From the NCBI GenBank assembly GCA_965208575.1, contig CBDBOV010000005.1:288001-352000 (forward strand): a stretch of DNA of 64,000 bases, written 5' to 3'. The DNA comes from Spirochaetia bacterium. Lineage in GTDB: Bacteria > Spirochaetota > Spirochaetia > SZUA-6 > Bin103. The stretch's first letter is position 1. Each line of letters opens with the position of its first letter. Positions 5,121 through 25,805 of the stretch are shown here, in pieces. The position numbers were made by a program, and so were the translations under genes. The notes under the pieces are model-generated. The model had not been told where the DNA came from. It ran no database searches and worked only from the letters and a program-made list of their open reading frames with translations.

Positions 5121-5804
5121 TTGCCCGCGCCGGAGCGGCTGGTTGCCGCCTTCGCCGCCGAGCAACTGCGGGCGCGGCGCTGTGTGCTGGTCGCCCTTGA
5201 CGGCGGGGCCGGCTCCGGCAAGTCGACGTTCGCGCTCCGAGTGCGGCACGCCCTGGGCACGGAAATCGGCTGCGCGGTGGTGCACCTGGACCACTTCTTC
5301 CGCACTCGGCGGGAGCGCGGCAGCAGGCTGGCGCGGGTGGAGGACACCGACTGGCAGCGGCTGCGGGACGAGGTGATCCGCCCGCTGCGAGCGGGCCGGA
5401 CCGCGCGGTTCCTGTTGTACGACTGGGCCCTCGACCGACTGGACGGGTGGCAGACCGTGCAGCCCGCCGGCGTGGTGATCGTGGACGGGGTGAGCGCGCT
5501 GCGGCGCGAGTTGGCGGGCTGCTTCGACCTGGCGGTCTGGCTCTCCTGTCCGCGCGAGAAGCGGGTCGCGCGCCTCGCCGGGCGCGGTGACACGCCGCCG
5601 GAGGAGATCGAGTACTGGCTACCCTCCGAGGATGCCTACGTCGCCGCGCATGCTCCCCGGCAGCGCGCCCACCTGGTGGTCGACGCCAGCGCCGACACGG
5701 CGGCGGCGGGCGCCGCGCTGGTAAGCGAGCGCTGGTCACCGCCGGCCATCAGTACCGGGCGTCCAGCTTCAGCCGGATGCCGTGCTGCGGCCCGGAGTCG
5801 TTGA
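5121..5804 (+). CDS. Uridine kinase-like P-loop protein
   Basis: VALDGGAGSGKST Walker A, HLDHF, VIVDGV; the last ~18 codons overlap the adhesin gene in antisense (native stop apparently lost). Confidence 0.75.
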   Translation: MPAPERLVAAFAAEQLRARRCVLVALDGGAGSGKSTFALRVRHALGTEIGCAVVHLDHFFRTRRERGSRLARVEDTDWQRLRDEVIRPLRAGRTARFLLYDWALDRLDGWQTVQPAGVVIVDGVSALRRELAGCFDLAVWLSCPREKRVARLAGRGDTPPEEIEYWLPSEDAYVAAHAPRQRAHLVVDASADTAAAGAALVSERWSPPAISTGRPASAGCRAAARSR

Positions 5805-8800
5805 CCGGCTCGGTCCGGATCGCCTCGACGCCGAGGTCGAACGACGACGTCCCGCTCCGGGCGAGCCCGAGCTTCCAGCCGAGGCGGAACTCGCGCGCGG
5901 TGTCGGACAGCGCGACGCCGAACTCCGGCGTTGCGGTGAGGCGCTCGCCGAAGGCAGGGAAGCCGTAGCCGAACTTCAGTTCCAGCCGACGGCTGTCCAG
6001 GCCGTCGCCGGTGGCGGCCAGGCCGGCCAGGGTCGGCCGCCCGAGCAGCGCCCGGCTGCCGCCGGTGGCCGCGGCGCCCACGGTCTGGGTGACGCTCAGC
6101 GACGCTCCCCGGTCGGAGGCCGGGTCCGAGTCCCAGGCAAGCGACCCGGACAGGCCGAGGTCGCGGAAGCCGTCGAACTCGGCGGTCAGCAACCCGCGCG
6201 CCGCCACCTGCGCCGACAGCCCGAGCGCCGGGGCGGACCAGGCCAGCCCGCCGCCCACGTCCATCCCGTAGCCGGTCTCCGCGTCACCGCCGTCGTGCCG
6301 CACCCCGACCGCGACCGTGGGCTCCAGCGTGCCGCCGCCCGCCAGCGCGAGGCGGTAGCCGCCGTCGAGCCCCAGCCTGATCCGCGTGGCGTCCGCCTGC
6401 GCTTCCGCCAGCCCGGATGCCTCCGCGGAACCGGTGCGCACCCAGTAGGCGTCGGTCTCGATGGCCAGCGAGAAGCCGCTCCCGGCGGTCGGCTCCACCA
6501 GCCGCCCGCGCGCGCCCAGCGCCGCCAGCACCAGCGACAGGTCGGTCTCCAGCGCCGCCGCCCCCTCGGGCGTGAGCGTGAGCCCGCCCAGCCCCAGGCC
6601 GCCGGCCGCCCACGCGGTCAGCCGTTCGCTCAGGTCCACCCCCACGTAGGGGTGCACCGCGGTCAGCGTGCTCGCCACCGTCCCGGCGCCGGCGGCGGCC
6701 CGGTAGCTGCCGTCCCCGCGTGCGTGCGAGAGCATCACCCCGCCGAGCCACGCCCCGGAGTCCACCTCCGCACCGAGCAGCGCCGTGGTCACCTCGCCCT
6801 CCACGCTCAGGCTCCCCTCGCGCCCCTCGAACCGCGACCACCCGCCGCGGCCCCACAGCGCCGCCGACGGTCCGTCCTGCGCCGCCGCGGAGGTCACCGC
6901 GAACGCGCTGCCGGCCAGCAGCTCGCCGCCGCTCATCGTGCGCGGCTGCTCCGGCCTGCCTGCCAGCCAGCGCGCCAGCTCCTGGTCGGCAAGCCGCGCC
7001 GATTCGTCCGCGTCGAGGCCGCCGGCGGCGAGCTCCTGCCCGGCGATCCGCGCCTGTGCACCGCCGCCGCCCCGCGCCGCCAGCCGCGCCCCGACCGCAT
7101 CCACCACCTGCTCGGCCAGCGTGCGCCCGAAGCGCGCCAGCCACGCCCGCGGCATCGGGTCCGTGTTCTCGATCGTGCCGGTCGCCTCCAGGTCGCCCGC
7201 GCGCGCGCCCACGAGGTTCGACAGCCGCAAGCTGAACGTCTCGTGCCCCTCGTCGTGGCTGTCGTCGAGCACGGGCACGCTCACCGTCTTCGTCGTCTCG
7301 CCCGCGGCGAAGGTCAGCGTGCCGCTCGCCGCCGTGTAGTCCTCGCCCGCCGTCGCCGTGCCGTCGGATGTGGCGTAGTCCACCGTCACGGAGTGCTCCG
7401 CGCCCGTGAAGGCGCGGCTCAGCGACACCTCGAACTCCACCGCCTCGTCCGCACCCTCGCGCGCCCGTGCGTCCGCCACCGAGAGCGCCGGGCGCCAGTC
7501 CACCTTGTGGCCGGAAGCATGGCCCAGGCCGGTGTGGCCGAGCGCCGCGTCCGTCCCGCCCGCCGTGCGGATCGTCCCGCCGCTCAGGGTCAGCGTGTCC
7601 GCGAGCACCGCGATCCCCTGCCTCGACAGGTTCGGCTCCACCACCGTGTGCGCGAAAATGAGGCTGCTCGTGCCGCTGCCGCTCGCGTAGGCCGCCTGCT
7701 TCTCGCCCCACTCCGCCGGGTCCATGTCGATGGACAGCGTCGGCGTCCCGGTCACCGTCACCGCCTCGCTGAACGTCGCCCGGATCCGGATCGTCTCGCC
7801 CAGCAGATAGGTGTCGCCCGAGGCCGGGCTCGACACCACCGACACGCCGCTCACCGACGGCGGCCCCGACGAAGAAGCCGGCGGCGACATCCGCCAGTCC
7901 ACCTTGTGTGCCGGATCGTGGGCGAGCGCCACATGCCCGAGCAGCGCGTCCGCGCCCGTCCGCGTCGAGACGATCGCGCCGCCGTTCGCGTCCAGCGTGT
8001 CCGCCAGCACCGCGATCCCCTGCGTCGAGATGTTCGGCTCCACCACCTCGTGCACGAAAATGAGCGTCGGCGAGCCCGAGCCGCGCTCGTAGACCGCGCG
8101 CTTGGTGCCCCACTCCGCCGGGTCCATGTCGATCGCGATCTCCGGCGCGCCCGTCACCGTCACCGCCCCGGTGAAGCTTACCCGCACCCGGATCCGCTCG
8201 CCGAGCCCGTAGGTCGCGTCGCTCCCTGCGTCCGACATCACCGCCACCGCGGCCACCGAGGGCGGCGGGGTCGCCGCCGCGCCTTCGACCTCCGGATGCG
8301 CGAGCACCGCGGCGAGACCGCCGCCCGCGCTTGAGACAGACCCGCCGTCGAGCCGCAGGCTGTCCCCGGCCAGCCCAGGCGCGCCCTGCCAGACCTCGCC
8401 CTCGGCCAGCGTGTAGGCGAAGGTCAGCCGATCGCCGCCCGAGCCCCGCACATAGGCCGCGCGCCGCTCGACGTCCCCGAACGTCACCGCAACCGTCGGC
8501 ACGCCCTCGACCGCGACCGGCTCGGCGAACACGAGCGTCGCCTCCACCGACTCGCCCGCCTCGAAGCGCCCGTCGGCCTGTGTGGCGACCGACACCGCCG
8601 TCACCCCCGGCGCCGCGCCGAAGCCGAGCGACGCCGGCGCGCCGGCCGCCGCGGCCACGATGGTCCCGCCGTTGAGCTTCAGCCCCGACGCCGCCACCCG
8701 CACCGGCGCCTGCACGCGCCCGTCCGCCTCGGTCACCCGGTACGCGAACACCAGCCGCGCCGTGCCCGTGCCCGAGACGTACGCCGCCCGCCGGATCCCG

Positions 8801-11800
8801 CCGTTCGCGGCACGAGTGTCCGCGATCAGCGCGAGCGTCGGCGCGCCGCCCTCGGTGTCGACCCGCACCGGCGCGTCGAACGTCACCGCCGCCTCGACCG
8901 TCTCGCCCTCGGCCCAGGCGCCGTCGCTTCCCGCGTCCGAGACCACCTCGACCCCGGTCACCGCGACCGGGACCGGCGCGAGCCGCCAGTCCACCTTGTG
9001 CGCCGGGTCGTGGTCGATTCCCGGGTGCCCGAGCGCCGCGTCCGCCTGCGTCACCGCCGCCTTGATGGTCCCGCCATGCAGCGCCAGCGTGTCCGCGAGC
9101 ACCGCGATCCCTTGCGTCGAGATGTTGGGCTCGACCACCTCGTGGACGAACACCAGCGTGTCGGTGCCCGAGCCGCTCTCGTACGCCGCGCGCTTCTCGC
9201 CCCACTCCGCCGGGTCCATGTCTATGGTCAGCGCCGGCGTGCCGCCGGCCGTGTCCACGTCGACCGCCGTCCCGAAGGTCACCGCCACCCGGATCCGCTC
9301 GCCGAGCGCGTAGGTGTCGTCCTCGCCTGCGTCCGAGACCACCGCGACCCCCGTCACCGCGGGCGCCCCCCCGGTGACGTTCTCCAGGTCGATCTCGACG
9401 TAGCGCTCCTCGACCGTGCCGTCCTGCGTGTGGAGCCGCGACAGGCCCGGCGTCTTCATGGGGTTGCCGGCGAGGTCGCGCAGCGGCCCGTCGGAGCCGT
9501 CGGCGCGCCGGGAGTACTTCACGCGGTTTTGCTCCAGCAGGCCCGCCTTCGCCCGGGGCATGCCCTCGCCCATGCCGACCGTCACCACGGCGCCCGCGAC
9601 CGCCACGCCGCCCGTGGGCGTGAAGCCGACCGTGTCGGTCCCCGAGGTCTGCAAGGCCATGTTGAACCGGCCCCCCGTCGCCTCGGGGTCCAGCGCCTCG
9701 CTGAAGGTGAGCGTCATCGTCGCGCCGTCGATGGCGCCCCGCAGCAGTTGCGGCGGCGCCGCGTCCACCCGGTGACCTGCGTCGTGGGCGATTCCCGCGT
9801 GGCCGAGCGCGGCGTCAGTCTGTGTCGCCGCCGAGCGGATCGTCCCGCCGTCGAGCGCCAGCGTGTCCGCGAGCACCGCGATGCCCGCGGCCGACTCGTC
9901 CGGCGCCACCGCGGTCCAGGCGAAGGTCAGCGTCTCCGTCCCCGAGCCGCCCTCGTACGCCGCCCACCGCTCGCCCGCACCCCCCTCGCCGCCGAGGTCG
10001 AGCTTGAGCCGCGGCGTCCCGTTGGTGGTGTCCACCTCCACCGCCTCGCCGAAGGTCAGCGCCACCCGCACCGCCTCGCCCGCCGCGTAGGTGGCGTCGC
10101 TTCCCGCCTCCGAGACCACCGCCACCCCAATCACCGCCGGCCCCCCGCCCGCCACCGCCTGCCCGGTGAACGGCGCCACCTGGTGGCCCTCCACGTCCCA
10201 CAGCCCTGTGCCGCCCGAGTGCGGCGGGACGTAGCGCACCGTCAGCCGCTCACCCTCGGCCGGCGCCCGGCTCAAGCTCAGCACCACCTCCCGCCCGTCG
10301 GCCGAGAGCGCCGCGTCCTCCACCGCAAGCGCGGGCGCGCCCCCCGGCGTGCGCACCGACCGGGCGCTCGCACCGCCGCCCCCGTCCCCGGCGCCGCTCG
10401 CCCGGAAGTCCTCCGCGCGCGGCGGCGCCTCCCGGGTCAGCGCCCCCTCGAAGCGAAGCCGCATCTGCGACCGGCTCACCGACACCCCCGAGAACCGGTC
10501 CACGCACCACTGCGCGTGCGCGTTCCTCACCGCCTGCTCGCTGAACCCGTCCGCCTGCACACCCCACACGTTGCGCAAGGCGTTCGTCGTCGGCTTCGCG
10601 TAGCTCACCGTGCCGGTTCTGTTGCACGGAAAGACCGGCCACTTCAGGCCCAGCTCCACCTCGTTGCCGCGCACCGCCACGGACTCCACCGGGAGGTACC
10701 CCCAGCTCATGGAGAACGCCGAGCGGTCCGGCACGTGCGCCGGGTCGAGCGGCTGCGTCCAGGCGAGCGTCAGCGTCCGGTGCGCCACCGACGCCGGGTC
10801 CGCCGCCGCAAGCCCCGGCTTGCCCGGGCTCGTCGGCCCCAGGTTGGTCACCGACTCGCCCGACAGGTTCGCCGCGTCGTTGCCCGCCGTGTCCTGGACC
10901 GGGTTCGTCCCCGCCGTGTAGTCCACCGTCACCGCCGCCGAGGCCGCGACCGACGCGGACAGCGTGAGCGTGACCGCGCTCGCGCTCACCGCAACGCCGC
11001 TCACCGTCTGCGCGGCAGTCCCCGCTCTCACCGTGTAGGCGCCCCTCGCCGGCACCGAGCCGGTGTCCAGCGTCTCGTCGTAGTACAGCGTGAGCTTCGT
11101 CCCGCTCGCCACCGCCCGGGTCAGCGTCGGCCGCACCGCCCGCTCCCCGGCCGAGCGCGTCACCGTGCGCTGGAACGCCGCGACCTCGTTGCCGTGGGTA
11201 TCCTCGAGCGCGGCGCCCAGGCTGGGCGAGGGGCGGTAGCTCACCATGGCCTGGTGCCCCGCAAGCACCCCCGTGCCGAGCGTGAGCGTCACCGTCGCCC
11301 CGTTCACCGCGACCGTGTTGGGGGACTGGTCGGTGACCGGCGCCCCCTGGAAGCGGGCGCCCTGGATGAGGAACGTTTCGCGCAGACTCAGGAGCTGCCG
11401 CGCCGAGGGCGTCGCCAGGGGCTCGTCGAAGGTCAGCGTCACGATCGTCCCCGTCGCGTCGTCCACCGCCGCGCTCGGGTGCTGCGCCGGGCCGGTGTTG
11501 TTGGTCACCGTCTGAGCGGGAAAGCTCGCCACCTCGTTGCCGGCCTCGTCCCTCAGCCGGTTGCCGGTGCCCATGGTCGGCTTGGTGTAGCTCACCTTCA
11601 CGTCCGTGTCGGTGTCCAGCACCGCGTTCGCCAGGGTCAGGGTCACCACCGCCCCGCTGATGGTGGGCGACCCGCTCAGGCTCACGGTCTGCTCGCCGCT
11701 CCCCGACGGGGTCTTCTTCACCGTGAAGGCGCCGTTCGCCAGCGACTCGGCCGTGCCGAGGGTCTCGTTGAAGGTGAGCGTCAGCGTCGCCCCGTCCACC

Positions 11801-12678
11801 GCCGCCGCGGACAGGGTTGGCGAGGTGCCGTCCACCTTGTGGTTCGCGTCGTGGGCGAGCCCGGCATGGGTGAGCGTCGCGTTCTCCCCGGTGGTCGACA
11901 CGGACACGATGGTGCCGCCGTTCAGCTCCAGCGTGTTCGCCAGCACCGCCGCGCCCGCGCTCGAGGCGTCGCCCGCAGCCACCGTGTAGGCGAACTCCAG
12001 CGTCGTCGTGCCGCTGCCGCTCGCGTAGTCCGCCCACTTCTCGTCCCCGGCACCGGTGCTGAAGTCGAGCTTCACCCGCGGCACGCCGGTGACCGTCACC
12101 GCCTTGCTGAAGGTCAGCCGAACCCCGATGGTCGCGCCCCGTGCGTAGGTGTCGTCGGCGACCGGCTGCGACGACACCGCGACCCCCGTCACCGTCGGCA
12201 CCATCCCGGTGACGTTTTTCAGTGCAATGATTTTTGTGCTGGGCCTGTCCAACATCCGGTGGTCCAACCTCACCGCGTTGCCCGCGAGGTCCTTGAGCCC
12301 CTCGGCGCGGTCTGTGGGCGATATGTAAAAAAATTTGTTTGAGAACAACAGAGAGGTGCTTGGCGGCCAGCCCGGTTGCGCCTGTACAGTGCGTTCGCCC
12401 AGTCCGACCGTCACCACGTTGCCGCTGATCGTCACCTCGCCCTTGGCGGTAAAGGAGTTAGTCGATATCGAGCCGTGAACGCCGTAAATTTCCACCCGGA
12501 ACCATCCCCCCTTCGAGTTCGTATCCAGCGCCTCGCTGAAGTAGAGGGTCACCGTCCTGCCGTCGATCTCGCCCCGTACCAGCGTCGGCGGCGTGGTGTC
12601 CGGGGCCTGCGCGGCGGCGAACGGCGCCAGCGCGGTCGCGACGGCGGCGAGCAGCGCGAACGTACGGACGAACTTCAT
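5749..12678 (-). CDS. Giant modular surface adhesin/autotransporter-like protein 1 (2309 aa): SwmB repeats, Ig-like repeats, Calx-beta, C-terminal beta-barrel
   Basis: Signal peptide; SwmB-like units (VDGATLTLTFNETL...LRDEAGN); repeated VxGVAVVSDAGxDxTY modules; Calx-beta (VDYATSDGTATAGEDYTAASGTLTFAAGET); barrel ending LKLDARY. Confidence 0.85.
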   Translation of the reverse strand: MKFVRTFALLAAVATALAPFAAAQAPDTTPPTLVRGEIDGRTVTLYFSEALDTNSKGGWFRVEIYGVHGSISTNSFTAKGEVTISGNVVTVGLGERTVQAQPGWPPSTSLLFSNKFFYISPTDRAEGLKDLAGNAVRLDHRMLDRPSTKIIALKNVTGMVPTVTGVAVSSQPVADDTYARGATIGVRLTFSKAVTVTGVPRVKLDFSTGAGDEKWADYASGSGTTTLEFAYTVAAGDASSAGAAVLANTLELNGGTIVSVSTTGENATLTHAGLAHDANHKVDGTSPTLSAAAVDGATLTLTFNETLGTAESLANGAFTVKKTPSGSGEQTVSLSGSPTISGAVVTLTLANAVLDTDTDVKVSYTKPTMGTGNRLRDEAGNEVASFPAQTVTNNTGPAQHPSAAVDDATGTIVTLTFDEPLATPSARQLLSLRETFLIQGARFQGAPVTDQSPNTVAVNGATVTLTLGTGVLAGHQAMVSYRPSPSLGAALEDTHGNEVAAFQRTVTRSAGERAVRPTLTRAVASGTKLTLYYDETLDTGSVPARGAYTVRAGTAAQTVSGVAVSASAVTLTLSASVAASAAVTVDYTAGTNPVQDTAGNDAANLSGESVTNLGPTSPGKPGLAAADPASVAHRTLTLAWTQPLDPAHVPDRSAFSMSWGYLPVESVAVRGNEVELGLKWPVFPCNRTGTVSYAKPTTNALRNVWGVQADGFSEQAVRNAHAQWCVDRFSGVSVSRSQMRLRFEGALTREAPPRAEDFRASGAGDGGGGASARSVRTPGGAPALAVEDAALSADGREVVLSLSRAPAEGERLTVRYVPPHSGGTGLWDVEGHQVAPFTGQAVAGGGPAVIGVAVVSEAGSDATYAAGEAVRVALTFGEAVEVDTTNGTPRLKLDLGGEGGAGERWAAYEGGSGTETLTFAWTAVAPDESAAGIAVLADTLALDGGTIRSAATQTDAALGHAGIAHDAGHRVDAAPPQLLRGAIDGATMTLTFSEALDPEATGGRFNMALQTSGTDTVGFTPTGGVAVAGAVVTVGMGEGMPRAKAGLLEQNRVKYSRRADGSDGPLRDLAGNPMKTPGLSRLHTQDGTVEERYVEIDLENVTGGAPAVTGVAVVSDAGEDDTYALGERIRVAVTFGTAVDVDTAGGTPALTIDMDPAEWGEKRAAYESGSGTDTLVFVHEVVEPNISTQGIAVLADTLALHGGTIKAAVTQADAALGHPGIDHDPAHKVDWRLAPVPVAVTGVEVVSDAGSDGAWAEGETVEAAVTFDAPVRVDTEGGAPTLALIADTRAANGGIRRAAYVSGTGTARLVFAYRVTEADGRVQAPVRVAASGLKLNGGTIVAAAAGAPASLGFGAAPGVTAVSVATQADGRFEAGESVEATLVFAEPVAVEGVPTVAVTFGDVERRAAYVRGSGGDRLTFAYTLAEGEVWQGAPGLAGDSLRLDGGSVSSAGGGLAAVLAHPEVEGAAATPPPSVAAVAVMSDAGSDATYGLGERIRVRVSFTGAVTVTGAPEIAIDMDPAEWGTKRAVYERGSGSPTLIFVHEVVEPNISTQGIAVLADTLDANGGAIVSTRTGADALLGHVALAHDPAHKVDWRMSPPASSSGPPSVSGVSVVSSPASGDTYLLGETIRIRATFSEAVTVTGTPTLSIDMDPAEWGEKQAAYASGSGTSSLIFAHTVVEPNLSRQGIAVLADTLTLSGGTIRTAGGTDAALGHTGLGHASGHKVDWRPALSVADARAREGADEAVEFEVSLSRAFTGAEHSVTVDYATSDGTATAGEDYTAASGTLTFAAGETTKTVSVPVLDDSHDEGHETFSLRLSNLVGARAGDLEATGTIENTDPMPRAWLARFGRTLAEQVVDAVGARLAARGGGGAQARIAGQELAAGGLDADESARLADQELARWLAGRPEQPRTMSGGELLAGSAFAVTSAAAQDGPSAALWGRGGWSRFEGREGSLSVEGEVTTALLGAEVDSGAWLGGVMLSHARGDGSYRAAAGAGTVASTLTAVHPYVGVDLSERLTAWAAGGLGLGGLTLTPEGAAALETDLSLVLAALGARGRLVEPTAGSGFSLAIETDAYWVRTGSAEASGLAEAQADATRIRLGLDGGYRLALAGGGTLEPTVAVGVRHDGGDAETGYGMDVGGGLAWSAPALGLSAQVAARGLLTAEFDGFRDLGLSGSLAWDSDPASDRGASLSVTQTVGAAATGGSRALLGRPTLAGLAATGDGLDSRRLELKFGYGFPAFGERLTATPEFGVALSDTAREFRLGWKLGLARSGTSSFDLGVEAIRTEPVNDSGPQHGIRLKLDARY

Positions 12679-15700: not shown

Positions 15701-17322
15701 GTGACCTCCGCCCCCGAGGTCGGCTGCACCGTGACCGTCCAGCGCCGGTTCTCGCCTTTCACCACCCGCTTCGTGCGGGTCACCGTCGCGTTCGTCGCCT
15801 CGAGCGCCTCGGTGCGCAGCGTCGCCGAGGAAAACTCCCGCACCAGCGCCTCGCTGAACTCGAGACCGAAGCTGAACGCGCTGTCCCTGCCCCCGTGCGA
15901 GGCCGGCACATCGACGAACCGCGCCGTCAGCGGCCGGCTGCCCCCCTGCCCCCCTGCCCCGGACGCGGTTGGGAGGCGCCCGCCGTCCACCTTGTGGTTC
16001 CGGTTGTGGGCGAGGCCCCCATGCGCAAGCGTCGCGTCCTCCCCGGCATCCGACGTGGACTCGATCGTGCCGCCGTTCAGTTCCAGCGTGTTCGCGAGCA
16101 CCGCCACGCCCGCGCTCGACGAGTCGTCCTGCGCCACCGCGTAGGCGAACTCCAGCCTCGTCGTGCCACTGCCGCCCGTGTACTCCGCCCACTGCTCGTC
16201 TCCGTCCGACGAGCTGAAGTCGAGCTTCACCCGCGGCGTGCCGGTGACCGTCACCGCCTCGCTAAAGGTCAGCCGCACCCCGATGGTCTCGCCCTGCGCG
16301 TAGGTGTCGTCGCCGACCGGCTCCGACGACACCTCGACATTCGTGGCCTTGGGCAGACAGAGAGGAGCCGCCGCCCGGCGATAAGCGCCGGCCGTCTGAA
16401 TGGCGGCCGCCTGAATGCCGGCCGCCTGAAAGCCAGCCGCTTGAACGCCGGCCGCTTGAACGCCGGACGCCTGAATGCCGGCCGCCTGAAAGCCGGCCGC
16501 CCGGCTGCCCGCCGCCTGAAAGCTGGCCGCCCCGAAAGGGCTGGCCCACGTCCCACAGTCAGGGACCACCGTCCGACCAGCAATGCCGTCCCACTGCATA
16601 GCTGCCACCTGGTTGCCGGAGGGGTCCTGGAGCGGGTTGCTGGTCGGCTTCGTGTAGCTCACCGTCACCTGCGCGCCGGACGCCGCCGCCGAGGCCAGGT
16701 TCAGCTTGAGCGTGTCCCCGGAAATCTCCACCGGATCGGTAGTCGCCAGTGTGGCCGGACTATTGCTCACCCTCACCGTAAACGCGCTCGCCGCCGGCTT
16801 GGAACTCGTGTCCAGTTGGGTGTAGAAGGTCATGGTCACCACCGTGCCGCTCACCTCCACAAGCCTGACCGCCGGCGTGGAGACGTTGCTCAACTTGATC
16901 GAGTTCCTTGGGTGTATGTCCCTCACCTCGTTGCCGGCAACGTCCCGGAGCTTGTTGACGGCCCCGCTGCTGAAGTACGCGTAAAACCAGGCACTGTAGC
17001 CCGGTGTCGCCCGTCTGACGCCACCGACCATCACCGTTTTGCCGCTGATCGTCACCGGTCCCTTTGACCAACAAGTGCTCCCGCAACCGCATCTGATCCC
17101 GGGAGGGCACGGGCACGGGAATTTCACCTGCGCCCAGAAGGCGCGCGCCGCCGGCACCGAGGTCGTGTCCAGCGTCTCGCTGAAGTAGAGGGTCATCGTC
17201 GTGCCGTCGATTTCACCCCGCACCAGCGTCGGCGGCGTGGTGTCCGGGGCCTGCGCGGCGGCGAACGGCGCCAGCGCGGTAGCGACGGCGGCCAGGAGCG
17301 CGAACGTACGGACGAGTTTCAT
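12751..17322 (-). CDS. Giant modular adhesin/autotransporter-like protein 2 (1523 aa)
   Basis: Same signal peptide and near-identical C-terminal ~700 aa as protein 1; two PLTARFVDVPASHGG modules; GGGAGAG RBS. Confidence 0.85.
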   Translation of the reverse strand: MKLVRTFALLAAVATALAPFAAAQAPDTTPPTLVRGEIDGTTMTLYFSETLDTTSVPAARAFWAQVKFPCPCPPGIRCGCGSTCWSKGPVTISGKTVMVGGVRRATPGYSAWFYAYFSSGAVNKLRDVAGNEVRDIHPRNSIKLSNVSTPAVRLVEVSGTVVTMTFYTQLDTSSKPAASAFTVRVSNSPATLATTDPVEISGDTLKLNLASAAASGAQVTVSYTKPTSNPLQDPSGNQVAAMQWDGIAGRTVVPDCGTWASPFGAASFQAAGSRAAGFQAAGIQASGVQAAGVQAAGFQAAGIQAAAIQTAGAYRRAAAPLCLPKATNVEVSSEPVGDDTYAQGETIGVRLTFSEAVTVTGTPRVKLDFSSSDGDEQWAEYTGGSGTTRLEFAYAVAQDDSSSAGVAVLANTLELNGGTIESTSDAGEDATLAHGGLAHNRNHKVDGGRLPTASGAGGQGGSRPLTARFVDVPASHGGRDSAFSFGLEFSEALVREFSSATLRTEALEATNATVTRTKRVVKGENRRWTVTVQPTSGAEVTVSLPATTDCTATGALCTPDGRGLSNAVTATVTAPAPPAVTGVSVASGAGADQTYGLGDTIQVRVTFDGPVDVTGTPRIKIDMDPAEWGEKWAAYASGGGTDSLTFVHTVVEPNISTQGIAVLEDTLELAGGTIRADGADANLSHDGLGHDANHKVDWRTAGGQPPLTARFVDVPASHGGRDSAFSFGLVFSEALVRKLSSATLRTEALQATNATVTRTKRVVKGDNRRWTVTVQPTSGAEVTVSLPATTDCTATGALCTPDGRKLSSAVSATVKAPGPPSVSGVAVVSSPASGDTYLLGETIRIRATFSEAVTVTGTPTLSIDMDPAEWGEKQAAYASGSGTSSLIFAHTVVEPNLSRQGIAVLADTLTLSGGTIRTAGGTDAALGHTGLGHASGHKVDWRPALSVADARAREGADEAVEFEVSLSRAFTGAGHSVTVDYATSDGTATAGEDYTAASGTLTFAAGETTKTVSVPVLDDSHDEGHETFSLRLSNVVGARAGDLEATGTIENTDPMPRAWLARFGRTLAEQVVDAVGERLAARGGGGAQARLAGQELAGAGGLDADESARLADQELARWLAGRPEQPRTMSGGELLAGSAFSVTSAAAEDRPAAALWGRGGWSRFEGREGSLSVEGEVTTALLGAEVDSRAWLGGVMLSHARGDGSYRADAGAGTVASTLTAVHPYVGVDLSERLTAWAAGGLGLGGLTLTPEGARALETDLSLVLAALGARGRLVEPTAGSGFSLAIETDAYWVRTGSAEASGLAEAQADATRIRLGLDGGYRIGLAGGGALEPTVAVGVRHDGGDAETGYGMDVGGGLAWSAPALGLSGQVAARGLLTAEFDGFRDLGLSGSLAWDSDPASDRGASLTVTQTVGAAATGGSRALLGRPTLAGLAATGDGLDSRRLELKFGYGFPAFGERLTATPEVGVALSDTAREFRLGWKLGLARSGTSSFDLGVEAIRTEPVNDSGPEHGIRLKLDSRY
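16381..16530 (-). repeat. In-frame 15-bp tandem repeat x10 (AAG[FIV]Q pentapeptide)
   Basis: Units such as CTGAATGCCGGCCGC; four units at the equivalent position of adhesin 3 (22538-22597). Confidence 0.9.
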
Positions 17323-17557
17323 GGCACTCTCCCTTGCCGGCCCTTGCCGGGCTTGCGTCGCGTCATCGCGGCCTGCAGTGCGCGCCGCCGCCCATCACCG
17401 GGCGTGCAGCTTCGTTCGCGATAGTCTCGGCCGCCGGCGAGACTCCGCACTGTCAGGTTTCCTCGCCCCGCCAGCCCCCTCCGGCGCCCACACGACATGC
17501 GAGCCTCGCCGAATGACAGGGACAGGGGCCGTCCACACTCCGACCGCATGCTGCCGG

Positions 17558-17575
17558 ATTATACCAGGTCTTGTA
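17558..17575 (-). promoter_or_regulatory. Extended -10 promoter (TGGTATAAT) for adhesins 2 and 1
   Basis: Consensus TGnTATAAT at 17558-17566 in an AT-rich patch; overlapping TATAC-N8-GTATA inverted repeat. Confidence 0.6.
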
Positions 17576-17696
17576 TAAAATGTGCGTACTAATACGGCCT
17601 TTTTCAATATTCATATCATCAACTTACCGGCGGCCGGAGAGGGCGGCGCGGAGACGGCCGCCGACCCCACGCCCGGACCGGCAACCGGCCGAGCAC

Positions 17697-17983
17697 GGGT
17701 GAGCGCGCTGCGGCGCGAGCTGGCGGGCTGCTTCGACCTGACGGTCTGGCTCTCCTGCCCGCGCGAGAAGCGGGTCGCGCGTCTCGCCGGGCGCGGTGAC
17801 ACGCCGCCGGAGGAGATCGAGTACTGGCTGCCCTCCGAGGATGCCTACGTCGCCGCGCATGCGCCCCGGCAGCGCGCCCACCTGGTGGTCGACGCCAGCG
17901 CCGACGCGGCGGCCGGCGCCGGGCTGGTGACCAAGCGCTGGTCGCCGCCGCCGGCAGCGGGCTACCGGATGCGGGAGTCGTAG
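17697..17983 (+). pseudogene. Duplicated 3' fragment of the uridine kinase-like gene
   Basis: VSALRRELAGCFDLTVWLSCPREKRVARLAGRGDTPPEEIEYWLPSEDAY nearly identical to the segment from 5488 to ~5745; Walker A absent. Confidence 0.9.
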
Positions 17984-18044
17984 TCGGCTACCGATGCCGC
18001 CACCAGCCGGCGGTACCTTCTCGATCGGCGGAATCCGCTTCACC

Positions 18045-18087
18045 CGGTGCGGTCATGGCCGCCGCTCCGGCATCCGTGACCGCACCG
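18045..18087. terminator. 14-bp stem-loop downstream of adhesin 3 (terminator or mRNA stabiliser)
   Basis: CGGTGCGGTCATGG ... CCGTGACCGCACCG inverted repeat; no U-tract. Confidence 0.45.
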
Positions 18088-18124
18088 TCGCGTCATCGCG
18101 GCCTGCAGTGCGCGACGCCGCGCA

Positions 18125-21100
18125 TCAGTACCGGGCGTCCAGCTTCAGCCGGATGCCGTGCTGCGGCCCGGAGTCGTTGACCGGCTCGGTCCGGATCGCC
18201 TCGACGCCGAGGTCGAACGACGACGTCGCGCTCCGGGCGAGCCCGAGCTTCCAGCCGAGGCGGAACTCGCGCGCGGTGTCGGACAGCGCCACGCCCAACT
18301 CCGGCGTCGCGGTGAGGCGCTCGCCGAAGGCGGGGAAGCCGTAGCCGAACTTCAGTTCCAGCCGACGGCTGTCCAGGCCGTCGCCGGTAGCAGCCAGGCC
18401 GGCCAGGGTCGGCCGCCCGAGCAGCGCCCGGCTGCCGCCGGTGGCCGCCGCGCCCACGGTCTGGGTGACAGTCAGCGACGCTCCCCGCTCGGAGGCCGGG
18501 TCCGGGTCCCAGGCGAGCGAGCCGGACAGGCCGAGGTCGCGGAAGCCGTCGAACTCCTCGGTCAGCAACCCGCGCGCCGCCACCTGCGCCGACAGCCCGA
18601 GCGCCGGGGCCGACCAGGCCAGCCCGCCGCCCACGTCCATCCCGTAGCCGGTCTCCGCGTCACCGCCGTCGTGGCGCACCCCGACCGCGACCGTCGGCTC
18701 CACCGTGCCGCCGCGCCCCAGCCCGATCCGGTAGCCGCCGTCGAGCCCCAGCCTGATCCGCGTGGCGTCCGCCTGCGCTTCCGCCAGCCCCGATGCCTCC
18801 GCGGAACCGGTGCGCACCCAGTAGGCGTCGGTCTCGATGGCCAGCGAGAAGCCGCTCCCGGCGGTCGGCTCCACCAGCCGCCCGCGCGCGCCCAGCGCCG
18901 CCAGCACCAGCGACAGGTCGGTCTCCAGCGCCGCCGCCCCCTCGGGCGTGAGCGTGAGCCCGCCCAGCCCCAGCCCGCCGGCCGCCCACGCGGTCAGCCG
19001 CTCGCTCAGGTCCACCCCCACGTAGGGATGCACCGCGGTCAGCGTGCTCGCCACCGTCCCGGCGCCGGCGGCGGCCCGGTAGCTGCCGTCCCCGCGTGCG
19101 TGCGAGAGCATCACCCCGCCGAGCCACGCCCCGGAGTCCACCTCCGCGCCGAGCAGCGCCGTGGTCACCTCGCCCTCCACGCTCAGGCTTCCCTCGCGCC
19201 CCTCGAACCGCGACCACCCGCCGCGGCCCCACAGCGCCGCCGCCGGCCGATCCTCCGCCGCCGCGGAGGTCACCGAAAACGCGCTGCCGGCCAGCAGCTC
19301 GCCGCCGCTCATCGTGCGCGGCTGCTCCGGCGTGCCCGCCAGCCAGCGCGCCAGCTCCTGGTCGGCAAGCCGCGCCGATTCGTCCGCGTCGAGGCCGCCG
19401 GCGGAAAGCTCCTGCCCGGCAAGCCGCGCCTGTGCACCGCCGCCGCCCCGCGCCGCCAGCCGCGCCCCGACCGCGTCCACGACCTGCTCGGCCAGCGTGC
19501 GCCCGAACCGCGCCAGCCACGCCCGCGGCATCGCGTCCGTGTTCTCGATCGTGCCGGTCGCCTCCAGGTCGCCCGCGCGCGCGCCCACGACGTTCGACAG
19601 CCGCAAGCTGAACGTCTCGTGCCCCTCGTCGTGGCTGTCGTCGAGCACGGGCACGCTCACCGTCTTCGTCGTCTCGCCCGCGGCGAAGGTCAGCGTGCCG
19701 CTCGCCGCCGTGTAGTCCTCGCCCGCCGTCGCCGTGCCGTCGGATGTGGCGTAGTCCACCGTCACGGAGTGCCCCGCGCCTGTGAAGGCGCGGCTCAGCG
19801 ACACCTCGAACTCCACCGCCTCGTCCGCACCCTCACGCGCCCGTGCGTCCGCCACCGAGAGCGCCGGGCGCCAGTCCACCTTGTGGCCGGAAGCATGGCC
19901 GAGGCCGGTGTGCCCGAGCGCCGCGTCCGTCCCGCCCGCCGTGCGGATCGTCCCGCCGCTCAGGGTCAGCGTGTCCGCGAGCACCGCGATCCCCTGCCTC
20001 GACAGGTTCGGCTCCACCACCGTGTGCGCGAAAATGAGGCTGCTCGTGCCGCTGCCGCTCGCGTAGGCCGCCTGCTTCTCGCCCCACTCCGCCGGGTCCA
20101 TGTCGATGGACAGCGTCGGCGTGCCGGTCACCGTCACCGCCTCGCTGAACGTCGCCCGGATCCGGATCGTCTCGCCCAGCAGATAGGTGTCGCCCGAGGC
20201 CGGGCTCGAGACCACCGACACGCCGCTCACCGACGGCGGCCCCGGCGCCTTCACCGTCGCCGACACCGCGCTCGACAGCTTCCGCCCGTCCGGCGTGCAC
20301 AACGCGCCCGTCGCCGTGCAGTCGGTCGTCGCCGGCAGCGACACCGTGACCTCCGCCCCCGAGGTCGGCTGCACCGTGACCGTCCAGCGCCGGTTGTCGC
20401 CCCTCACCACCCGCTTCGTGCGGGTCACCGTCGCGTTCGTCGCCTGAAGCGCCTCGGTGCGCAGCGTCGCCGAGGAAAACTTCCGTACCAGCGCCTCGCT
20501 GAACACGAGACCGAAGCTGAACGCGCTGTCCCTGCCCCCGTGCGAGGCCGGCACATCGACGAACCGCGCCGTCAGCGGCGGCTGCCCCCCCGCCGTCCGC
20601 CAGTCCACCTTGTGGTTCGCGTCGTGGCCAAGGCCGTCATGCGCGAGGTTCGCGTCCGCGCCGTCCGCGCCGATCGTCCCGCCGGCGAGCTCCAGCGTGT
20701 TCTCCAGCACGGCGATGCCCTGCGTCGAGATGTTCGGCTCCACCACCGTGTGGACGAAGGTCAGGCTGTCCGTGCCGCCGCCGCTCGCGTAGGCCGCCCA
20801 CTTCTCGCCCCACTCCGCCGGGTCCATGTCGATCTTCAGCCGCGGCGTGCCCGTCACGTCCACCGGCCCGTCGAAGGTCACCCGGACCTGGATGGTGTCG
20901 CCGAGCCCGTAGGTCTGGTCCGCGCCCGCGCCCGAGACCACCGACACCCCGGTCACCGCGACCGGAACCGGCGCGAGCCGCCAGTCCACCTTGTGCGCGG
21001 GGTCGTGGTCGCGGCCCGCATGAGAGAGCGCCGCATCCACCTGCGCCGCCGCCGCCCTGATGGTCCCGCCGTCGAGCGCCAGCGTGTCCGCGAGCACCGC

Positions 21101-23401
21101 GACGCCCTCGGTCGCCAGGTTCGGCTCGACCACCTGGTAGACGAATACCAGCGTGTCCGTGCCCGATCCGCTCCGGTAGAGCGCCCGCTTCTCGCCCGAC
21201 TCAGCCGGGTCCAGGTCGACGGTCAGCGCCGGCGTCCCGCCGGCGCTATCGACCTCCACCGCCGCGCTGAACGTCACCGCCACCCGGACCCGCTCGCCGA
21301 GCGCGTAGGTGGCGTCGCTTCCTGCGTCCGAGACCACCGCCACGCCCGTCACCCGGGGCACCCCGGTGACGTTCTCAAGGGCGATGCGCACGTACCGCCA
21401 CTCCACCCCGTCGCCGATAGGCAGCACCTCGGGCGCCTTCACCAAGTTTCCGGCGAGGTCCCGCAGCGCCCCGCCCGCGCCGTCCGCGCCGTCGGCGCGC
21501 CGGATGTAGAGTACCTGGTTGCGCGTCAGCCGGCCGACCTCCGCCCGCGGATTGCCCGCGCCCATACCGACCGTCACCACCGAGTCCTCGACCGACACTA
21601 CGCCGGTGGCGTCGAAGTTGGACCAGAGGATCTCCGTCGACAGGTCCACCATGAACCGGCCCCCCGTCGCGCCCGCGTCCAGCGCCTCGTTGAAGAAGAG
21701 CTTCATCGTCCCGCCGTCGACCTCGCCCCGCAGCAGCCGCGGCGGCGCCGCGTCCACCTTGTGCGCCGGGTCGTGCGCGAGGCCCGCGTGGCCGAGCACC
21801 GCCGCGGCATCGGTCGCAACCGACCTGATGGCGCCGCCGTCGAGCTCCAGCGTGTCCGCGAGCACCGCCACGCCCGCGGCCGATTCGTCCGGCGCCGCCG
21901 CGGTCCAGGCGAAGGTGAGCGCCGTCGTGCCGGAGCCGCTCTCGTACGCCGCCCAGCGCTCGCCCGTGCCGTCGTCGCCACCGAGGTCGAGCTTCAGCCG
22001 CGGCGCCCCGCCTTCGGTGTCCACCTCTACCGCCTCGCCGAAGGTCAGCGCCACCTGCACGGTGTCGCCCGCCGCGTAGGTGTCGTCACCGCCCGCATCC
22101 GAGACCACCGCCGCCGCGGACACGGTTGCGCGCCGCCCGCCGTACACCTTGTGGTTCCGGTTGTGGGCGAGGCCCTTATGCGCAAGTGCCGCGTCCTCCC
22201 CGGCATCCGACACGGACTCGATCGTGCCGCCGTTCAGCGCCAGCGTGTTCGCGAGCACCGCCACGCCCGCGCTCGACGAGTCGTCCTGCGCCACCGAGTA
22301 GGCGAACTCCAGCCTCTTCGTGCCGCTGCCGCCCGCGTACTCCGCCCACTGCTCGTCTCCGTCCGACGAGCTGAAGTCGAGCTTCACCCGCGGCGTGCCG
22401 GTCACCGTCACCGCCTCGCTGAAGGTCAGCCGCACCCCAATGGACTCGCCCCGCGCGTAGGTGTCGTCGCCGACCGGCTCCGACGACACCTCGACATTCG
22501 TGGCCTTGGGCAGACAGAGAGGAGCCGCCGCCCGGCTAAAAATGCCGGCCGCCCGATAGCCGGGCGCCTGAAAGCCGGCCGCCCGGGTGCCGGCCGCCAT
22601 CCCACATTGAGGACTCGCGTCCCGATCACCAACGCCTGTCACCTGATAGCTTGCCACCTGGTTGCCGGAGGGGTCCTGGAGCGGGTTGCTGGACGGCTTC
22701 GTGTAGCTCACCCTCACCGTCGCGCCGGCCGCCGCCGCCGAGGCCAGGTTCAGCTTGAGCGTGACGCCGGCAATTTCCACCGGATCGGTAGTCGCCAGTG
22801 CGGCCGGATTATCGCCCACCGTCACCGCAAACGCGCTCGCCGCCGGCTTGGAGCTCGTGTCCAGCTTGTTCTCGAAGGTCATGGTCAGCACAGTGTTGCT
22901 CACCGTCATAACCCAGACCGACGGCGCGGTGACGTTGTCCAAAGAGTAAGCAAATGGTCGTATGTACCTCACCTCGTTGCCGGCAACGTCCCGGAGTTTG
23001 TTGACGGCTCGGCTGCTTCTGTACTCATACAACCAGACACGCCGGCCCGATACCGCCCGTGACATGCCGCTGACCACCACCTTTTTGCCGCTGATCTCCA
23101 CCGCTCCGCTGGCAAAACAAGTGTGGGCGCAGACATCGCGGAAACCGGGCAGGCCCCAGCCGCTGGGGATGCCGTGGGGGTTGTGGCTGCACAACAGGTG
23201 CTCCTGATACGTCCAGAAGGCGCGGGCCTCCGGCACCGAGTCCTCGTCCAGCGCCTCGTTGAAATAGAGGGTCAGCGTTCTGCCGTCGATTTCACCCCGC
23301 ACCAGCGTCGGCGGCGTGGTGTCCGGGGCCTGCGCGGCGGCGAACGGCGCCAGCGCGGTCGCGACGGCAGCGAGCAGCACGAACGTACGGACGAACTTCA
23401 T
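18125..23401 (-). CDS. Giant modular adhesin/autotransporter-like protein 3 (1758 aa)
   Basis: Same signal peptide and barrel; mosaic of modules found in proteins 1 and 2. Confidence 0.85.
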   Translation of the reverse strand: MKFVRTFVLLAAVATALAPFAAAQAPDTTPPTLVRGEIDGRTLTLYFNEALDEDSVPEARAFWTYQEHLLCSHNPHGIPSGWGLPGFRDVCAHTCFASGAVEISGKKVVVSGMSRAVSGRRVWLYEYRSSRAVNKLRDVAGNEVRYIRPFAYSLDNVTAPSVWVMTVSNTVLTMTFENKLDTSSKPAASAFAVTVGDNPAALATTDPVEIAGVTLKLNLASAAAAGATVRVSYTKPSSNPLQDPSGNQVASYQVTGVGDRDASPQCGMAAGTRAAGFQAPGYRAAGIFSRAAAPLCLPKATNVEVSSEPVGDDTYARGESIGVRLTFSEAVTVTGTPRVKLDFSSSDGDEQWAEYAGGSGTKRLEFAYSVAQDDSSSAGVAVLANTLALNGGTIESVSDAGEDAALAHKGLAHNRNHKVYGGRRATVSAAAVVSDAGGDDTYAAGDTVQVALTFGEAVEVDTEGGAPRLKLDLGGDDGTGERWAAYESGSGTTALTFAWTAAAPDESAAGVAVLADTLELDGGAIRSVATDAAAVLGHAGLAHDPAHKVDAAPPRLLRGEVDGGTMKLFFNEALDAGATGGRFMVDLSTEILWSNFDATGVVSVEDSVVTVGMGAGNPRAEVGRLTRNQVLYIRRADGADGAGGALRDLAGNLVKAPEVLPIGDGVEWRYVRIALENVTGVPRVTGVAVVSDAGSDATYALGERVRVAVTFSAAVEVDSAGGTPALTVDLDPAESGEKRALYRSGSGTDTLVFVYQVVEPNLATEGVAVLADTLALDGGTIRAAAAQVDAALSHAGRDHDPAHKVDWRLAPVPVAVTGVSVVSGAGADQTYGLGDTIQVRVTFDGPVDVTGTPRLKIDMDPAEWGEKWAAYASGGGTDSLTFVHTVVEPNISTQGIAVLENTLELAGGTIGADGADANLAHDGLGHDANHKVDWRTAGGQPPLTARFVDVPASHGGRDSAFSFGLVFSEALVRKFSSATLRTEALQATNATVTRTKRVVRGDNRRWTVTVQPTSGAEVTVSLPATTDCTATGALCTPDGRKLSSAVSATVKAPGPPSVSGVSVVSSPASGDTYLLGETIRIRATFSEAVTVTGTPTLSIDMDPAEWGEKQAAYASGSGTSSLIFAHTVVEPNLSRQGIAVLADTLTLSGGTIRTAGGTDAALGHTGLGHASGHKVDWRPALSVADARAREGADEAVEFEVSLSRAFTGAGHSVTVDYATSDGTATAGEDYTAASGTLTFAAGETTKTVSVPVLDDSHDEGHETFSLRLSNVVGARAGDLEATGTIENTDAMPRAWLARFGRTLAEQVVDAVGARLAARGGGGAQARLAGQELSAGGLDADESARLADQELARWLAGTPEQPRTMSGGELLAGSAFSVTSAAAEDRPAAALWGRGGWSRFEGREGSLSVEGEVTTALLGAEVDSGAWLGGVMLSHARGDGSYRAAAGAGTVASTLTAVHPYVGVDLSERLTAWAAGGLGLGGLTLTPEGAAALETDLSLVLAALGARGRLVEPTAGSGFSLAIETDAYWVRTGSAEASGLAEAQADATRIRLGLDGGYRIGLGRGGTVEPTVAVGVRHDGGDAETGYGMDVGGGLAWSAPALGLSAQVAARGLLTEEFDGFRDLGLSGSLAWDPDPASERGASLTVTQTVGAAATGGSRALLGRPTLAGLAATGDGLDSRRLELKFGYGFPAFGERLTATPELGVALSDTAREFRLGWKLGLARSATSSFDLGVEAIRTEPVNDSGPQHGIRLKLDARY

Positions 23402-25745: not shown

Positions 25746-25805
25746 CCCTCTCAGGCGGGTCTGACGGTCGATAATCGGAGAATGGGCGGTCAGCGATGAG
25801 AAAAC

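What the first reader, a model, noticed from the sequence alone, without database searches (positions are those of the whole stretch)
5749..23401. Three giant adhesins with a constant framework and hypervariable, Cys-rich tip loops
Seen: all three share the signal peptide and first framework strands (QAPDTTPPTLVRGEIDG..TLYF.E.LD ... G.V.ISG..V.V ... L(K/R)D.AGN.VR ... L.NV). The loops between these are unrelated and differ in length: RVEIYGVHGSISTNSFTAK (12205-12525), AQVKFPCPCPPGIRCGCGSTCWSK (16880-17160), TYQEHLLCSHNPHGIPSGWGLPGFRDVCAHTCFAS (22925-23240). The loops are visibly AT-richer than the rest of the genes, while the last ~2.1 kb is nearly identical between copies. An internal domain of the same type varies the same way (9370-9765 vs 21360-21755). 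Known: SwmB and Calx-beta repeats on a beta-barrel are typical of large adhesins. Inference: a diversified receptor repertoire with loop-restricted variation, antibody-like by analogy only. No diversifying enzyme is visible in the window.
Basis: partly seen in the sequence, partly recalled or inferred. Interest (0 to 1): 0.8.

Follow-up and report, generated by a model that had tools for sequence, protein, structure and literature searches.

The report
Adhesin gene family with divergent tips
Three neighbouring genes encode very large, membrane-anchored bacterial surface proteins whose far ends differ while the rest is kept alike by copying between the genes, which is an ordinary way for adhesin families to evolve and not a programmed, antibody-like diversity system.

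Summary
Three intact minus-strand genes (2309, 1523 and 1758 aa) share a signal peptide and about 55 first codons. Their next ~100 residues differ strongly, and their last ~2.1 kb is 94-100% identical.

They belong to a family of at least 10 genes in this 6.5 Mb genome. Each protein has a Sec signal, an N-terminal "long SWM" Ig-like domain, a stalk of SWM, unnamed and Calx-beta repeats, a helix, and an autotransporter-like outer-membrane barrel.

The "constant framework, hypervariable tip" picture comes mostly from concerted evolution:
- dS in the last 700 codons is 0.05-0.07 for every gene pair, but up to 1.2 in the tips.
- Against a sister species, where no gene conversion can act, the tip is only about 1.5 times faster than its neighbouring domains.

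Within the tip, substitutions are not confined to loops (Fisher p = 0.31 and 0.59). Only the length changes and the extra cysteines are.

Nothing points to programmed diversification:
- The only reverse transcriptases are group II intron types.
- The loop DNA is single-copy, so there is no template or donor copy.
- The changes are not A-specific.
- The tip is identical in contigs from two samples.

Verdict: a new member of a known kind, namely a paralogous adhesin family with a fast-evolving distal domain. Interest is moderate to low.

The parts
5749..12678 (-). Gene P0001, 2309 aa: signal peptide, long-SWM tip, SWM and unnamed repeats, an internal long-SWM domain, Calx-beta, helix, barrel
   Evidence: SWM_repeat 155 bits, Calx-beta 74.6, Big_5 43.3
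12751..17322 (-). Gene P0002, 1523 aa, same plan; its tip carries 5 Cys
18125..23401 (-). Gene P0003, 1758 aa, same plan; its tip carries 3 Cys and the longest loop
12154..12609 (-). P0001 N-terminal long-SWM (tip) domain, aa 24-175
   Evidence: SWM_repeat 20.8 bits, below threshold; 267.7 bits to the tip HMM
16837..17253 (-). P0002 tip domain, aa 24-162. The Cys-rich stretch (aa 69-84) runs from the loop between predicted strands C and C' into strand C'.
   Evidence: AF2 pLDDT 80.1, beta-sandwich; best fold match S-layer SbsC Ig-like domain
22883..23332 (-). P0003 tip domain, aa 24-173
   Evidence: identical in contigs of runs X2, X4 and X5
9319..9831 (-). Internal long-SWM domain of P0001 (aa 950-1120)
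21314..21829 (-). Internal long-SWM domain of P0003 (aa 525-696)
5749..7871 (-). Homogenised 3' module of P0001 (last unnamed repeat, Calx-beta 7204-7449, helix, barrel 5752-7191). The same module lies at 12751-14876 in P0002 and 18125-20247 in P0003.
   Evidence: 94-100% identity; dS 0.05-0.07 for all pairs
12514..12678 (-). Shared 5' block (signal peptide and first ~55 codons) of P0001. The same block lies at 17158-17322 in P0002 and 23237-23401 in P0003.
   Evidence: multi-copy 14-mers; dS 0.05-0.26
16387..16531 (-). 15-nt tandem repeat, 9.7 copies, encoding an AAG(F/I/V)Q pentapeptide array between Cys256 and Cys322 of P0002. P0003 has 3.7 copies at 22544-22598.
   Evidence: Decapeptide, weak hit
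24396..28142 (.). 3.75-kb multicopy insertion element (rve integrase and Transposase_29) beside the array. A copy also abuts the second cluster on contig C6.

Best explanation
**What it is.** The three genes are tandem members of a lineage-restricted family of at least 10 genes in this genome. They encode very large, Sec-exported fibrillar surface proteins anchored by an outer-membrane barrel of the autotransporter kind. The passenger is a string of domains:
- Ig-like SWM/Big_5-type domains;
- two repeat types with no Pfam family, about 110-120 aa each;
- one Calx-beta domain next to the anchor.

The N-terminal, membrane-distal domain is a ~140-aa "long SWM" beta-sandwich.

**How the pattern arises.** The family evolves by duplication, module shuffling and concerted evolution. 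The 3' ~2.1 kb, and to a lesser degree the first ~55 codons, are kept alike between copies by gene conversion. The distal domain escapes this homogenisation and keeps accumulating amino-acid replacements. Its C-C' loop changes length and gains cysteine pairs that probably staple it.

**Likely role.** This is most likely ordinary diversifying (or relaxed) selection on the ligand-contacting end of an adhesin repertoire in a host-associated bacterium. It is not programmed hypermutation.

**Shown versus inferred.** Shown: the architecture, the mosaic of divergence, and the absence of DGR or cassette machinery. Inferred: surface display, adhesion, disulfides, and selection as the cause.
For: **Architecture.**
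- Pfam gives SWM_repeat, Calx-beta and Big_5 in all three proteins.
- The AF2 tip model is a beta-sandwich (pLDDT 80.1). Its best fold match is the S-layer SbsC Ig-like domain (E 3e-3, TMq 0.51).
- The C-terminal 480 aa fold as a helix plus a long-stranded barrel (pLDDT 71.2). EstA and BrkA autotransporters are among 82 fold matches at E <= 1e-3.
- 3 of 6 distant in-genome paralogues of the barrel scanned, each 30-32% identical to it, pass PF03797 (48.6, 45.9 and 37.2 bits against a cutoff of 26).
- 29 of 30 nearest named Atlas clusters carry PF03797.

**Family.**
- tblastn finds 9 barrels at 76-100% identity, plus one at 38% whose gene carries the same long-SWM domains.
- The family was found in only 3 of 41 related genomes searched, counting G000 itself.

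**Concerted evolution.**
- In the last 700 codons, dS is 0.047-0.073 for all 10 pairs. In codons 1-55 it is 0.045-0.26. In the tips it reaches 1.2.
- P0001 aa 361-860 is virtually identical to its C6 counterpart: 3 non-synonymous and 1 synonymous difference in 500 codons.

**Fast tips between close paralogues.**
- P0002 against C6b: tip dN 0.147 against 0.012 in the rest (odds ratio 12.4, p = 2e-15).
- P0001 against C6a: tip dN 0.156 against 0.037 (odds ratio 4.5, p = 8e-10).

**No programmed system.**
- All 7 of 7 PF00078 matches look like group II intron reverse transcriptases or fragments of them. TIGR04416 confirmed the two ORFs scanned; one truncated match was judged by eye.
- Loop 14-mers are single-copy in the genome.
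- The differences are multi-nucleotide codon changes, not A-specific ones.
- The P0003 tip has 0 differences in contigs X2 (22397-23590), X4 (22835-23310) and X5 (22973-23194).
- The loop is identical in P0007 and P0008.
Against: - dN/dS above 1 within the tips is not significant (non-synonymous against synonymous, p = 0.28 for both tips together).
- dS is probably depressed by the extreme GC3 of 0.92-0.95, which inflates dN/dS. Against the sister species G006, the ratio is 1.0-2.9 across the tip and the two following domains tested, within the first 450 aa (only codons 1-55 stay below 1), and tip dN (0.19) is only about 1.5 times that of neighbouring domains (0.13). Positive selection specific to the tip is therefore not shown, and relaxed constraint fits equally well.
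- The barrel of these genes has no Pfam hit of its own. The model shows about 18 strands, not the 12 of classical autotransporters.
- No coordinates were available, so loop clustering and Cys-Cys distances are untested.
- Adhesion, surface exposure and expression are all inferred.
- The read data were contigs, which drop rare variants, and 462 difference rows were not shown.
Confidence: 0.7

Rival explanations
1. Relaxed constraint. The distal domain is simply tolerant of change and lies outside the conversion tracts. Its divergence is then neutral drift with no role in ligand specificity.
For: dN/dS in the tips is about 1 and not significantly above it. The passenger domains tested within the first 450 aa have a ratio of 1 or more against G006, only codons 1-55 falling below 1. 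Substitutions are spread over strands and loops alike. Replaced codons have lower GC3 (0.65-0.83 against 0.86-0.92), as expected from recent AT-biased mutation.
Against: Framework residues and motif islands stay conserved across 60 domains. Cysteines in the loops come in even numbers on top of one conserved Cys, which suggests maintained structure. All ORFs are intact.
Confidence: 0.2
2. Programmed diversification. A DGR-like, cassette-conversion or other targeted mutator acts on the tip loops.
For: Differences between close paralogues are clustered multi-nucleotide changes in otherwise identical DNA. GC3 dips locally.
Against: There is no DGR-type reverse transcriptase; all 7 of 7 RT matches look like group II intron types. 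There is no second copy of the loop DNA at k = 14. There is no A-specific pattern. The tip is identical in contigs of two samples and between P0007 and P0008. The genome is 95% complete, so absence is not absolute.
Confidence: 0.03
3. The proteins are not adhesins. They might be surface-layer or motility-type structural proteins, as SwmB and SbsC are, and the tips may matter for lattice contacts or for evading phage or predators.
For: The SWM_repeat family is named after a motility-associated giant protein (Pfam description). The best fold match is an S-layer protein.
Against: A C-terminal barrel anchor with a single distal domain and a repeat stalk is the layout of fibrillar adhesins (recalled knowledge). 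A family of at least 10 variable copies is unusual for a lattice protein.
Confidence: 0.07

Closest known systems
Paralogous families of classical (type Va) autotransporter adhesins, such as Chlamydia Pmp and Rickettsia Sca (recalled)
   Same: Sec signal, long passenger, helix plus C-terminal outer-membrane barrel, many paralogues per genome, conserved anchor and divergent passenger.
   Different: The passenger is built of Ig-like SWM, Calx-beta and unnamed repeats, not a beta-helix. The barrel has no direct PF03797 hit and is modelled with about 18 strands.
Fibrillar adhesins: a stalk of Ig-like repeats with a distal binding domain (concept seen in the search listing and abstract starts of PMC8877628 and PMC7616799; otherwise recalled)
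   Same: Repeat stalk, distal specialised domain, Ca-binding-type domains.
   Different: The anchor is an autotransporter-like barrel. The distal domain is itself an elaborated stalk-type (SWM) domain that also occurs internally.
SwmB / SWM_repeat (PF13753) and the Big_5 / SbsC Ig-like domains
   Same: Pfam hits lie above threshold in all three proteins. SbsC is the best structural match of the tip.
   Different: The tip domain alone is below threshold (20.8-22.6 bits against 27) and matches only the first 40-55 profile positions. It is about 50 residues longer and ends in a conserved L-x-N-V-T segment.
Diversity-generating retroelement targets (Mtd, TvpA) and cassette-based antigenic variation (Msp2, PilE, VlsE) (recalled)
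   Same: Surface proteins with a constant scaffold and a localised variable region.
   Different: There is no reverse transcriptase of that type, no template or donor copy, no A-specific changes and no variation between samples.

Membership tests
Type Va (classical) autotransporter | C-terminal autotransporter beta-domain (PF03797 / TIGR01414) | tested here: inconclusive
   The P0001 barrel has no Pfam hit even at E <= 10. P0003 scores 17.3 bits on TIGR01414 against a cutoff of 16, but no single stretch passes. Three paralogues 30-32% identical, out of 6 scanned, pass PF03797. 29 of 30 Atlas neighbours carry PF03797.
Type Va (classical) autotransporter | 12-stranded barrel with an alpha-helix leading into it | tested here: inconclusive
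   The AF2 model (pLDDT 71.2) has a helix at residues 12-38 but about 18 long strands. BrkA matches at TMt 0.59, and EstA ranks 4.
Type Va (classical) autotransporter | N-terminal Sec signal peptide | tested here: met
   Read directly from the sequence: a basic start, a hydrophobic core and an A-x-A-type site before residue ~25. No predictor was run.
SWM_repeat (PF13753) | Score above the gathering threshold | tested here: met
   155.1, 47.1 and 60.1 bits against 27 for the whole proteins. The tip domains alone score 20.8-22.6 bits, below threshold.
Calx-beta (PF03160) | Score above the gathering threshold | tested here: met
   74.6, 72.5 and 72.2 bits against 27.
Diversity-generating retroelement target | DGR-type reverse transcriptase in the genome | tested here: not met
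   7 of 7 PF00078 matches look like group II intron reverse transcriptases or fragments. TIGR04416 gave 328 and 160 bits for the two scanned; one truncated match was judged by eye. The genome is 95% complete.
Diversity-generating retroelement target | Template repeat matching the variable region, with A-specific mismatches | tested here: not met
   Loop 14-mers are single-copy. The differences involve all bases.
Cassette-based antigenic variation | Silent donor copies of the variable segment | tested here: not met
   No second copy of the loop DNA at k = 14. All tip-type hits lie inside long ORFs.

The most novel reading that the evidence does not exclude
The long-SWM domain may be a modular, antibody-like binding scaffold. 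Its C-C' loop varies in length and is repeatedly stapled by new cysteine pairs: P0002, P0003, and five unrelated copies in other organisms. The domain sits at the tip and along the stalk of giant surface proteins. It is found in MAGs of several phyla (Chloroflexota, Alphaproteobacteria, Acidobacteriota, Gammaproteobacteria), which could reflect exchange among co-resident symbionts for host or partner recognition.
Probability: 0.15. Interest if true: 0.6.

Novelty: new member of a known kind. Interest (0 to 1): 0.33.

Why it matters
The family is a candidate recognition repertoire of a host-associated bacterium: the stretch is near-identical in runs labelled with a host organism. It is also a clean example of how gene conversion in the conserved parts of a gene family can mimic a "hypervariable" region.

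Two further points have some value. Much of these proteins consists of repeat domains with no Pfam family. The barrel is a divergent, possibly larger relative of the autotransporter beta-domain. Both are useful for annotation, but neither changes current understanding.

Tried and rejected
**DGR or cassette mechanism.** Rejected.

**C6 cluster as a strain haplotig of the window locus.** Rejected. Its flanks are not collinear with the window: an insertion element lies on one side and unrelated sequence on the other.

**N-glycosylation of the conserved N-V-T sequon.** No GT41 or STT3 family gene was found in the 95%-complete genome, so this was left as a structural motif.

**Whether the variable loops share one face.** Not testable, because model coordinates are not given to the script box. 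Inferring it from strand order alone was judged too weak.

**Naming the repeat types.** Pfam named neither the ~120-aa nor the ~110-aa repeat.

**Read laying.** All four runs were contigs. Parts of the stretch had low cover. Many pieces at 80-90% likeness are paralogues or other organisms and were not interpreted. Run X1 (share 0.05) gave only short pieces at or below about 95% likeness, so it was not used as evidence of habitat.

**Literature.** Two searches were seen only as listings and abstract starts. No paper was read, and no paper on this family was found by those two searches. Supplements were not consulted.

Full report
**What is there**

The window is G000:C5:288001-352000 of a 6.5 Mb, 67% GC assembly in six contigs. 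Three intact ORFs lie head to tail on the minus strand:

| Protein | Window coordinates | Length |
|---|---|---|
| P0001 | 5749-12678 | 2309 aa |
| P0002 | 12751-17322 | 1523 aa |
| P0003 | 18125-23401 | 1758 aa |

Pfam finds SWM_repeat (155, 47 and 60 bits), Calx-beta (72-75 bits) and Big_5 in them. NCBIfam adds swm_rep_I and, for P0003, a marginal autotransporter-barrel hit.

**Check of the observation**

- All three begin with the same signal peptide and first strands.
- GC falls to 0.63-0.65 there, against 0.70-0.79 elsewhere.
- GC3 falls from 0.92-0.95 to 0.60-0.73. In a crude genome-wide gene set, mean GC3 is 0.85 and 16% of 30-codon windows lie below 0.75. So the tips are a local dip inside unusually GC3-rich genes, not a genome-wide outlier.
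- The last ~2.1 kb is 94-100% identical among the three genes and two more on contig C6.
- The internal domains at 9319-9831 and 21314-21829 are of the tip type.
- Only P0002 (5 Cys) and P0003 (3 Cys) have Cys-rich loops. P0001 has none in its tip.

**The family**

tblastn finds nine C-terminal modules at 76-100% identity. Four are on C5, three on C6 and two on C2. One more is at 38% identity, and its gene carries the same domains. One member is an 8940-aa ORF.

C6:3849-17517 holds two genes that are close copies of P0001 and P0002. These are "C6a" (3011 aa) and "C6b" (1521 aa), at about 95% DNA identity. The flanks of that locus differ from the window, so it is a second locus and not a haplotig. 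A 3.75-kb multicopy insertion element abuts both clusters.

The tip-type domain was found in 3 of 41 related genomes searched, counting G000: G000, G006 (same genus) and, weakly, G021.

**The tip domain**

- *Family membership.* Alone it is a sub-threshold SWM_repeat (20.8-22.6 bits against 27) that matches only the first 40-55 profile positions.
- *Occurrence.* An HMM of five copies finds 64 high-scoring (at least 90 bits) "long-SWM" domains of ~140 aa in 39 proteins, 60 of them distinct. Most are internal.
- *Cys-rich inserts elsewhere.* Five unrelated copies carry their own Cys-rich insert at the same loop.
- *Conserved and variable parts.* The entropy profile shows conserved islands: the D-T-T-P-P...F-S-E-x-L-D start, a G-x-V-x-I-S-G segment, an L-R-D-L-A-G-N motif and a final L-x-N-V-T. 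Variable stretches lie between them.
- *Fold.* AF2 on a 22-sequence alignment gives a beta-sandwich (pLDDT 80.1, pTM 0.73). The Cys-rich stretch runs from the loop between strands C and C' into strand C'. Foldseek gives no match at E <= 1e-3. The best match is the Ig-like part of S-layer protein SbsC (E 3e-3, TMq 0.51).
- *Phylogeny.* A tree of the 60 domains puts the P0002, P0003, C6b and G006-type tips together on a long branch (length 1.19). P0001 and C6a lie elsewhere. The internal domains fall in a well-supported clade of 22 whose subtypes recur across genes and organisms, some nearly unchanged.
- *Wider distribution.* Across 1.84 billion representative proteins, 796 match at E <= 1e-3, 274 at 1e-10 and 55 at 1e-30. 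Most are giant multi-repeat proteins. Among the 150 best listed, only P0004 matches full length at the N terminus.
- *Taxa.* Relatives occur in MAGs labelled Dehalococcoidia/Chloroflexi, Alphaproteobacteria, Vicinamibacterales and Pseudomonadales, among others (14 loci).

**The anchor**

- The last 480 aa have no Pfam hit and no relative among solved structures by sequence.
- AF2 on 16 in-genome paralogues gives a helix followed by about 18 long antiparallel strands (pLDDT 71.2).
- Foldseek returns large outer-membrane barrels. The autotransporters EstA (rank 4) and BrkA (TMt 0.59) are among 82 matches at E <= 1e-3.
- Three of six distant paralogues scanned pass PF03797.
- 29 of 30 nearest named Atlas clusters are PF03797 clusters, one of them also carrying Calx-beta.

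I therefore call the anchor autotransporter-like. Strict membership stays open.

**How the pattern arises**

Divergence along the genes is a mosaic:

| Region | dS between gene pairs |
|---|---|
| Last 700 codons | 0.047-0.073 for all ten pairs |
| Codons 1-55 | 0.045-0.26 |
| Tips | 0.07-1.2 |

P0001 aa 361-860 is virtually identical to C6a, with 3 non-synonymous and 1 synonymous difference in 500 codons. This is concerted evolution of the 3' module and, less strongly, of the 5' block. The tips are left out of it.

Between close paralogues the tips hold most of the amino-acid changes:

| Pair | Tip dN | dN elsewhere | Odds ratio | p | Tip dN/dS |
|---|---|---|---|---|---|
| P0002 / C6b | 0.147 | 0.012 | 12.4 | 2e-15 | 1.16 |
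| P0001 / C6a | 0.156 | 0.037 | 4.5 | 8e-10 | 1.94 |

. P0002 against P0003 gives a tip dN/dS of 1.27.

**Evidence against a special tip process**

- Non-synonymous against synonymous change within the tips is not significant (p = 0.28).
- GC3 near 0.95 probably depresses dS.
- Against the sister species G006, where conversion cannot act, dN is 0.19 in the tip and 0.13 in each of the next two domains tested. dN/dS is 1.0-2.9 in the tip and in both those domains; only codons 1-55 stay below 1.
- Within the tip, changed positions are not enriched outside predicted strands (p = 0.31 and 0.59).

So the tip is the fastest part of a generally fast passenger. The sharp contrast seen inside one genome is largely made by homogenisation of everything else. 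Replaced codons have lower GC3 than unchanged ones (0.65-0.83 against 0.86-0.92, p = 0.0015-0.046). This fits recent AT-biased mutation and explains the AT-richness.

**Programmed diversification**

- All seven PF00078 matches in the genome look like group II intron reverse transcriptases or fragments. TIGR04416 confirmed the two that were scanned.
- The loop DNA is single-copy at k = 14, while the shared 5' block is multi-copy.
- Differences between P0002 and C6b are clustered multi-nucleotide codon changes involving all bases.
- Contigs of runs X2 and X4 (one sample) and X5 (another sample of the same study) cover the P0003 tip with 0 differences, at 22397-23590, 22835-23310 and 22973-23194 respectively. 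Contigs drop rare variants, and 462 rows were hidden, so this is weak evidence.
- P0007 and P0008, from two assemblies of the G006-like lineage, share an identical short loop.

**Verdict**

This is a paralogous family of autotransporter-like fibrillar surface proteins, probably adhesins of a host-associated bacterium. Its ends are homogenised and its distal Ig-like domain evolves fast. It is a new member of a known kind.

The antibody analogy is only an analogy. No diversifying machinery was found, and none is needed to explain the pattern.

Noticed in passing
window 24396-28142: A 3.75-kb element encoding an rve integrase and a Transposase_29 protein. At least 6 copies at 99.9% or more were listed in the genome, with a ~51-bp conserved end just outside. 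One copy starts contig C6 directly beside the second gene cluster, so the two clusters may be linked by IS-mediated rearrangement or by an assembly ambiguity.
   Followed up: partly
window 16387-16531 and 22544-22598: A 15-nt tandem repeat (9.7 and 3.7 copies) encoding AAG(F/I/V)Q pentapeptides. It is bracketed by a Cys pair and has low GC3. Copy number differs between paralogues and in G006.
   Followed up: partly
window 15226-15594, 15979-16347 and 15601-15933 (many more copies exist): A ~120-aa repeat and a ~110-aa repeat (the latter with a C-x6-C pair) make up much of the stalk. Neither has a significant Pfam hit.
   Followed up: partly
G000:C2:377835-404657: An 8940-aa ORF of the same family, with the same C-terminal module at 86% identity.
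   Followed up: no
end of every long-SWM domain, e.g. window 12190-12204 and 16879-16893: A conserved L-x-N-(V/L/I)-(T/S) segment, formally an N-x-S/T sequon, closes nearly all 60 domains. No GT41 or STT3 glycosyltransferase was found in the genome.
   Followed up: partly
window 5752-7191: The barrel model has about 18 long strands rather than the 12 of classical autotransporters. Confidence is moderate (pLDDT 71.2).
   Followed up: partly
G000: C1:508029-509450 and four identical copies: Five identical group II intron reverse transcriptase/maturase genes and two truncated ones.
   Followed up: yes
window 5488-5744 and 17697-17950: A 257-bp segment downstream of P0001 recurs at 94% identity in the 802-bp spacer between P0002 and P0003. 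P0001, P0002, C6a and C6b also share ~75 nt upstream of the start codon, whereas the upstream region of P0003 is unrelated.
   Followed up: partly
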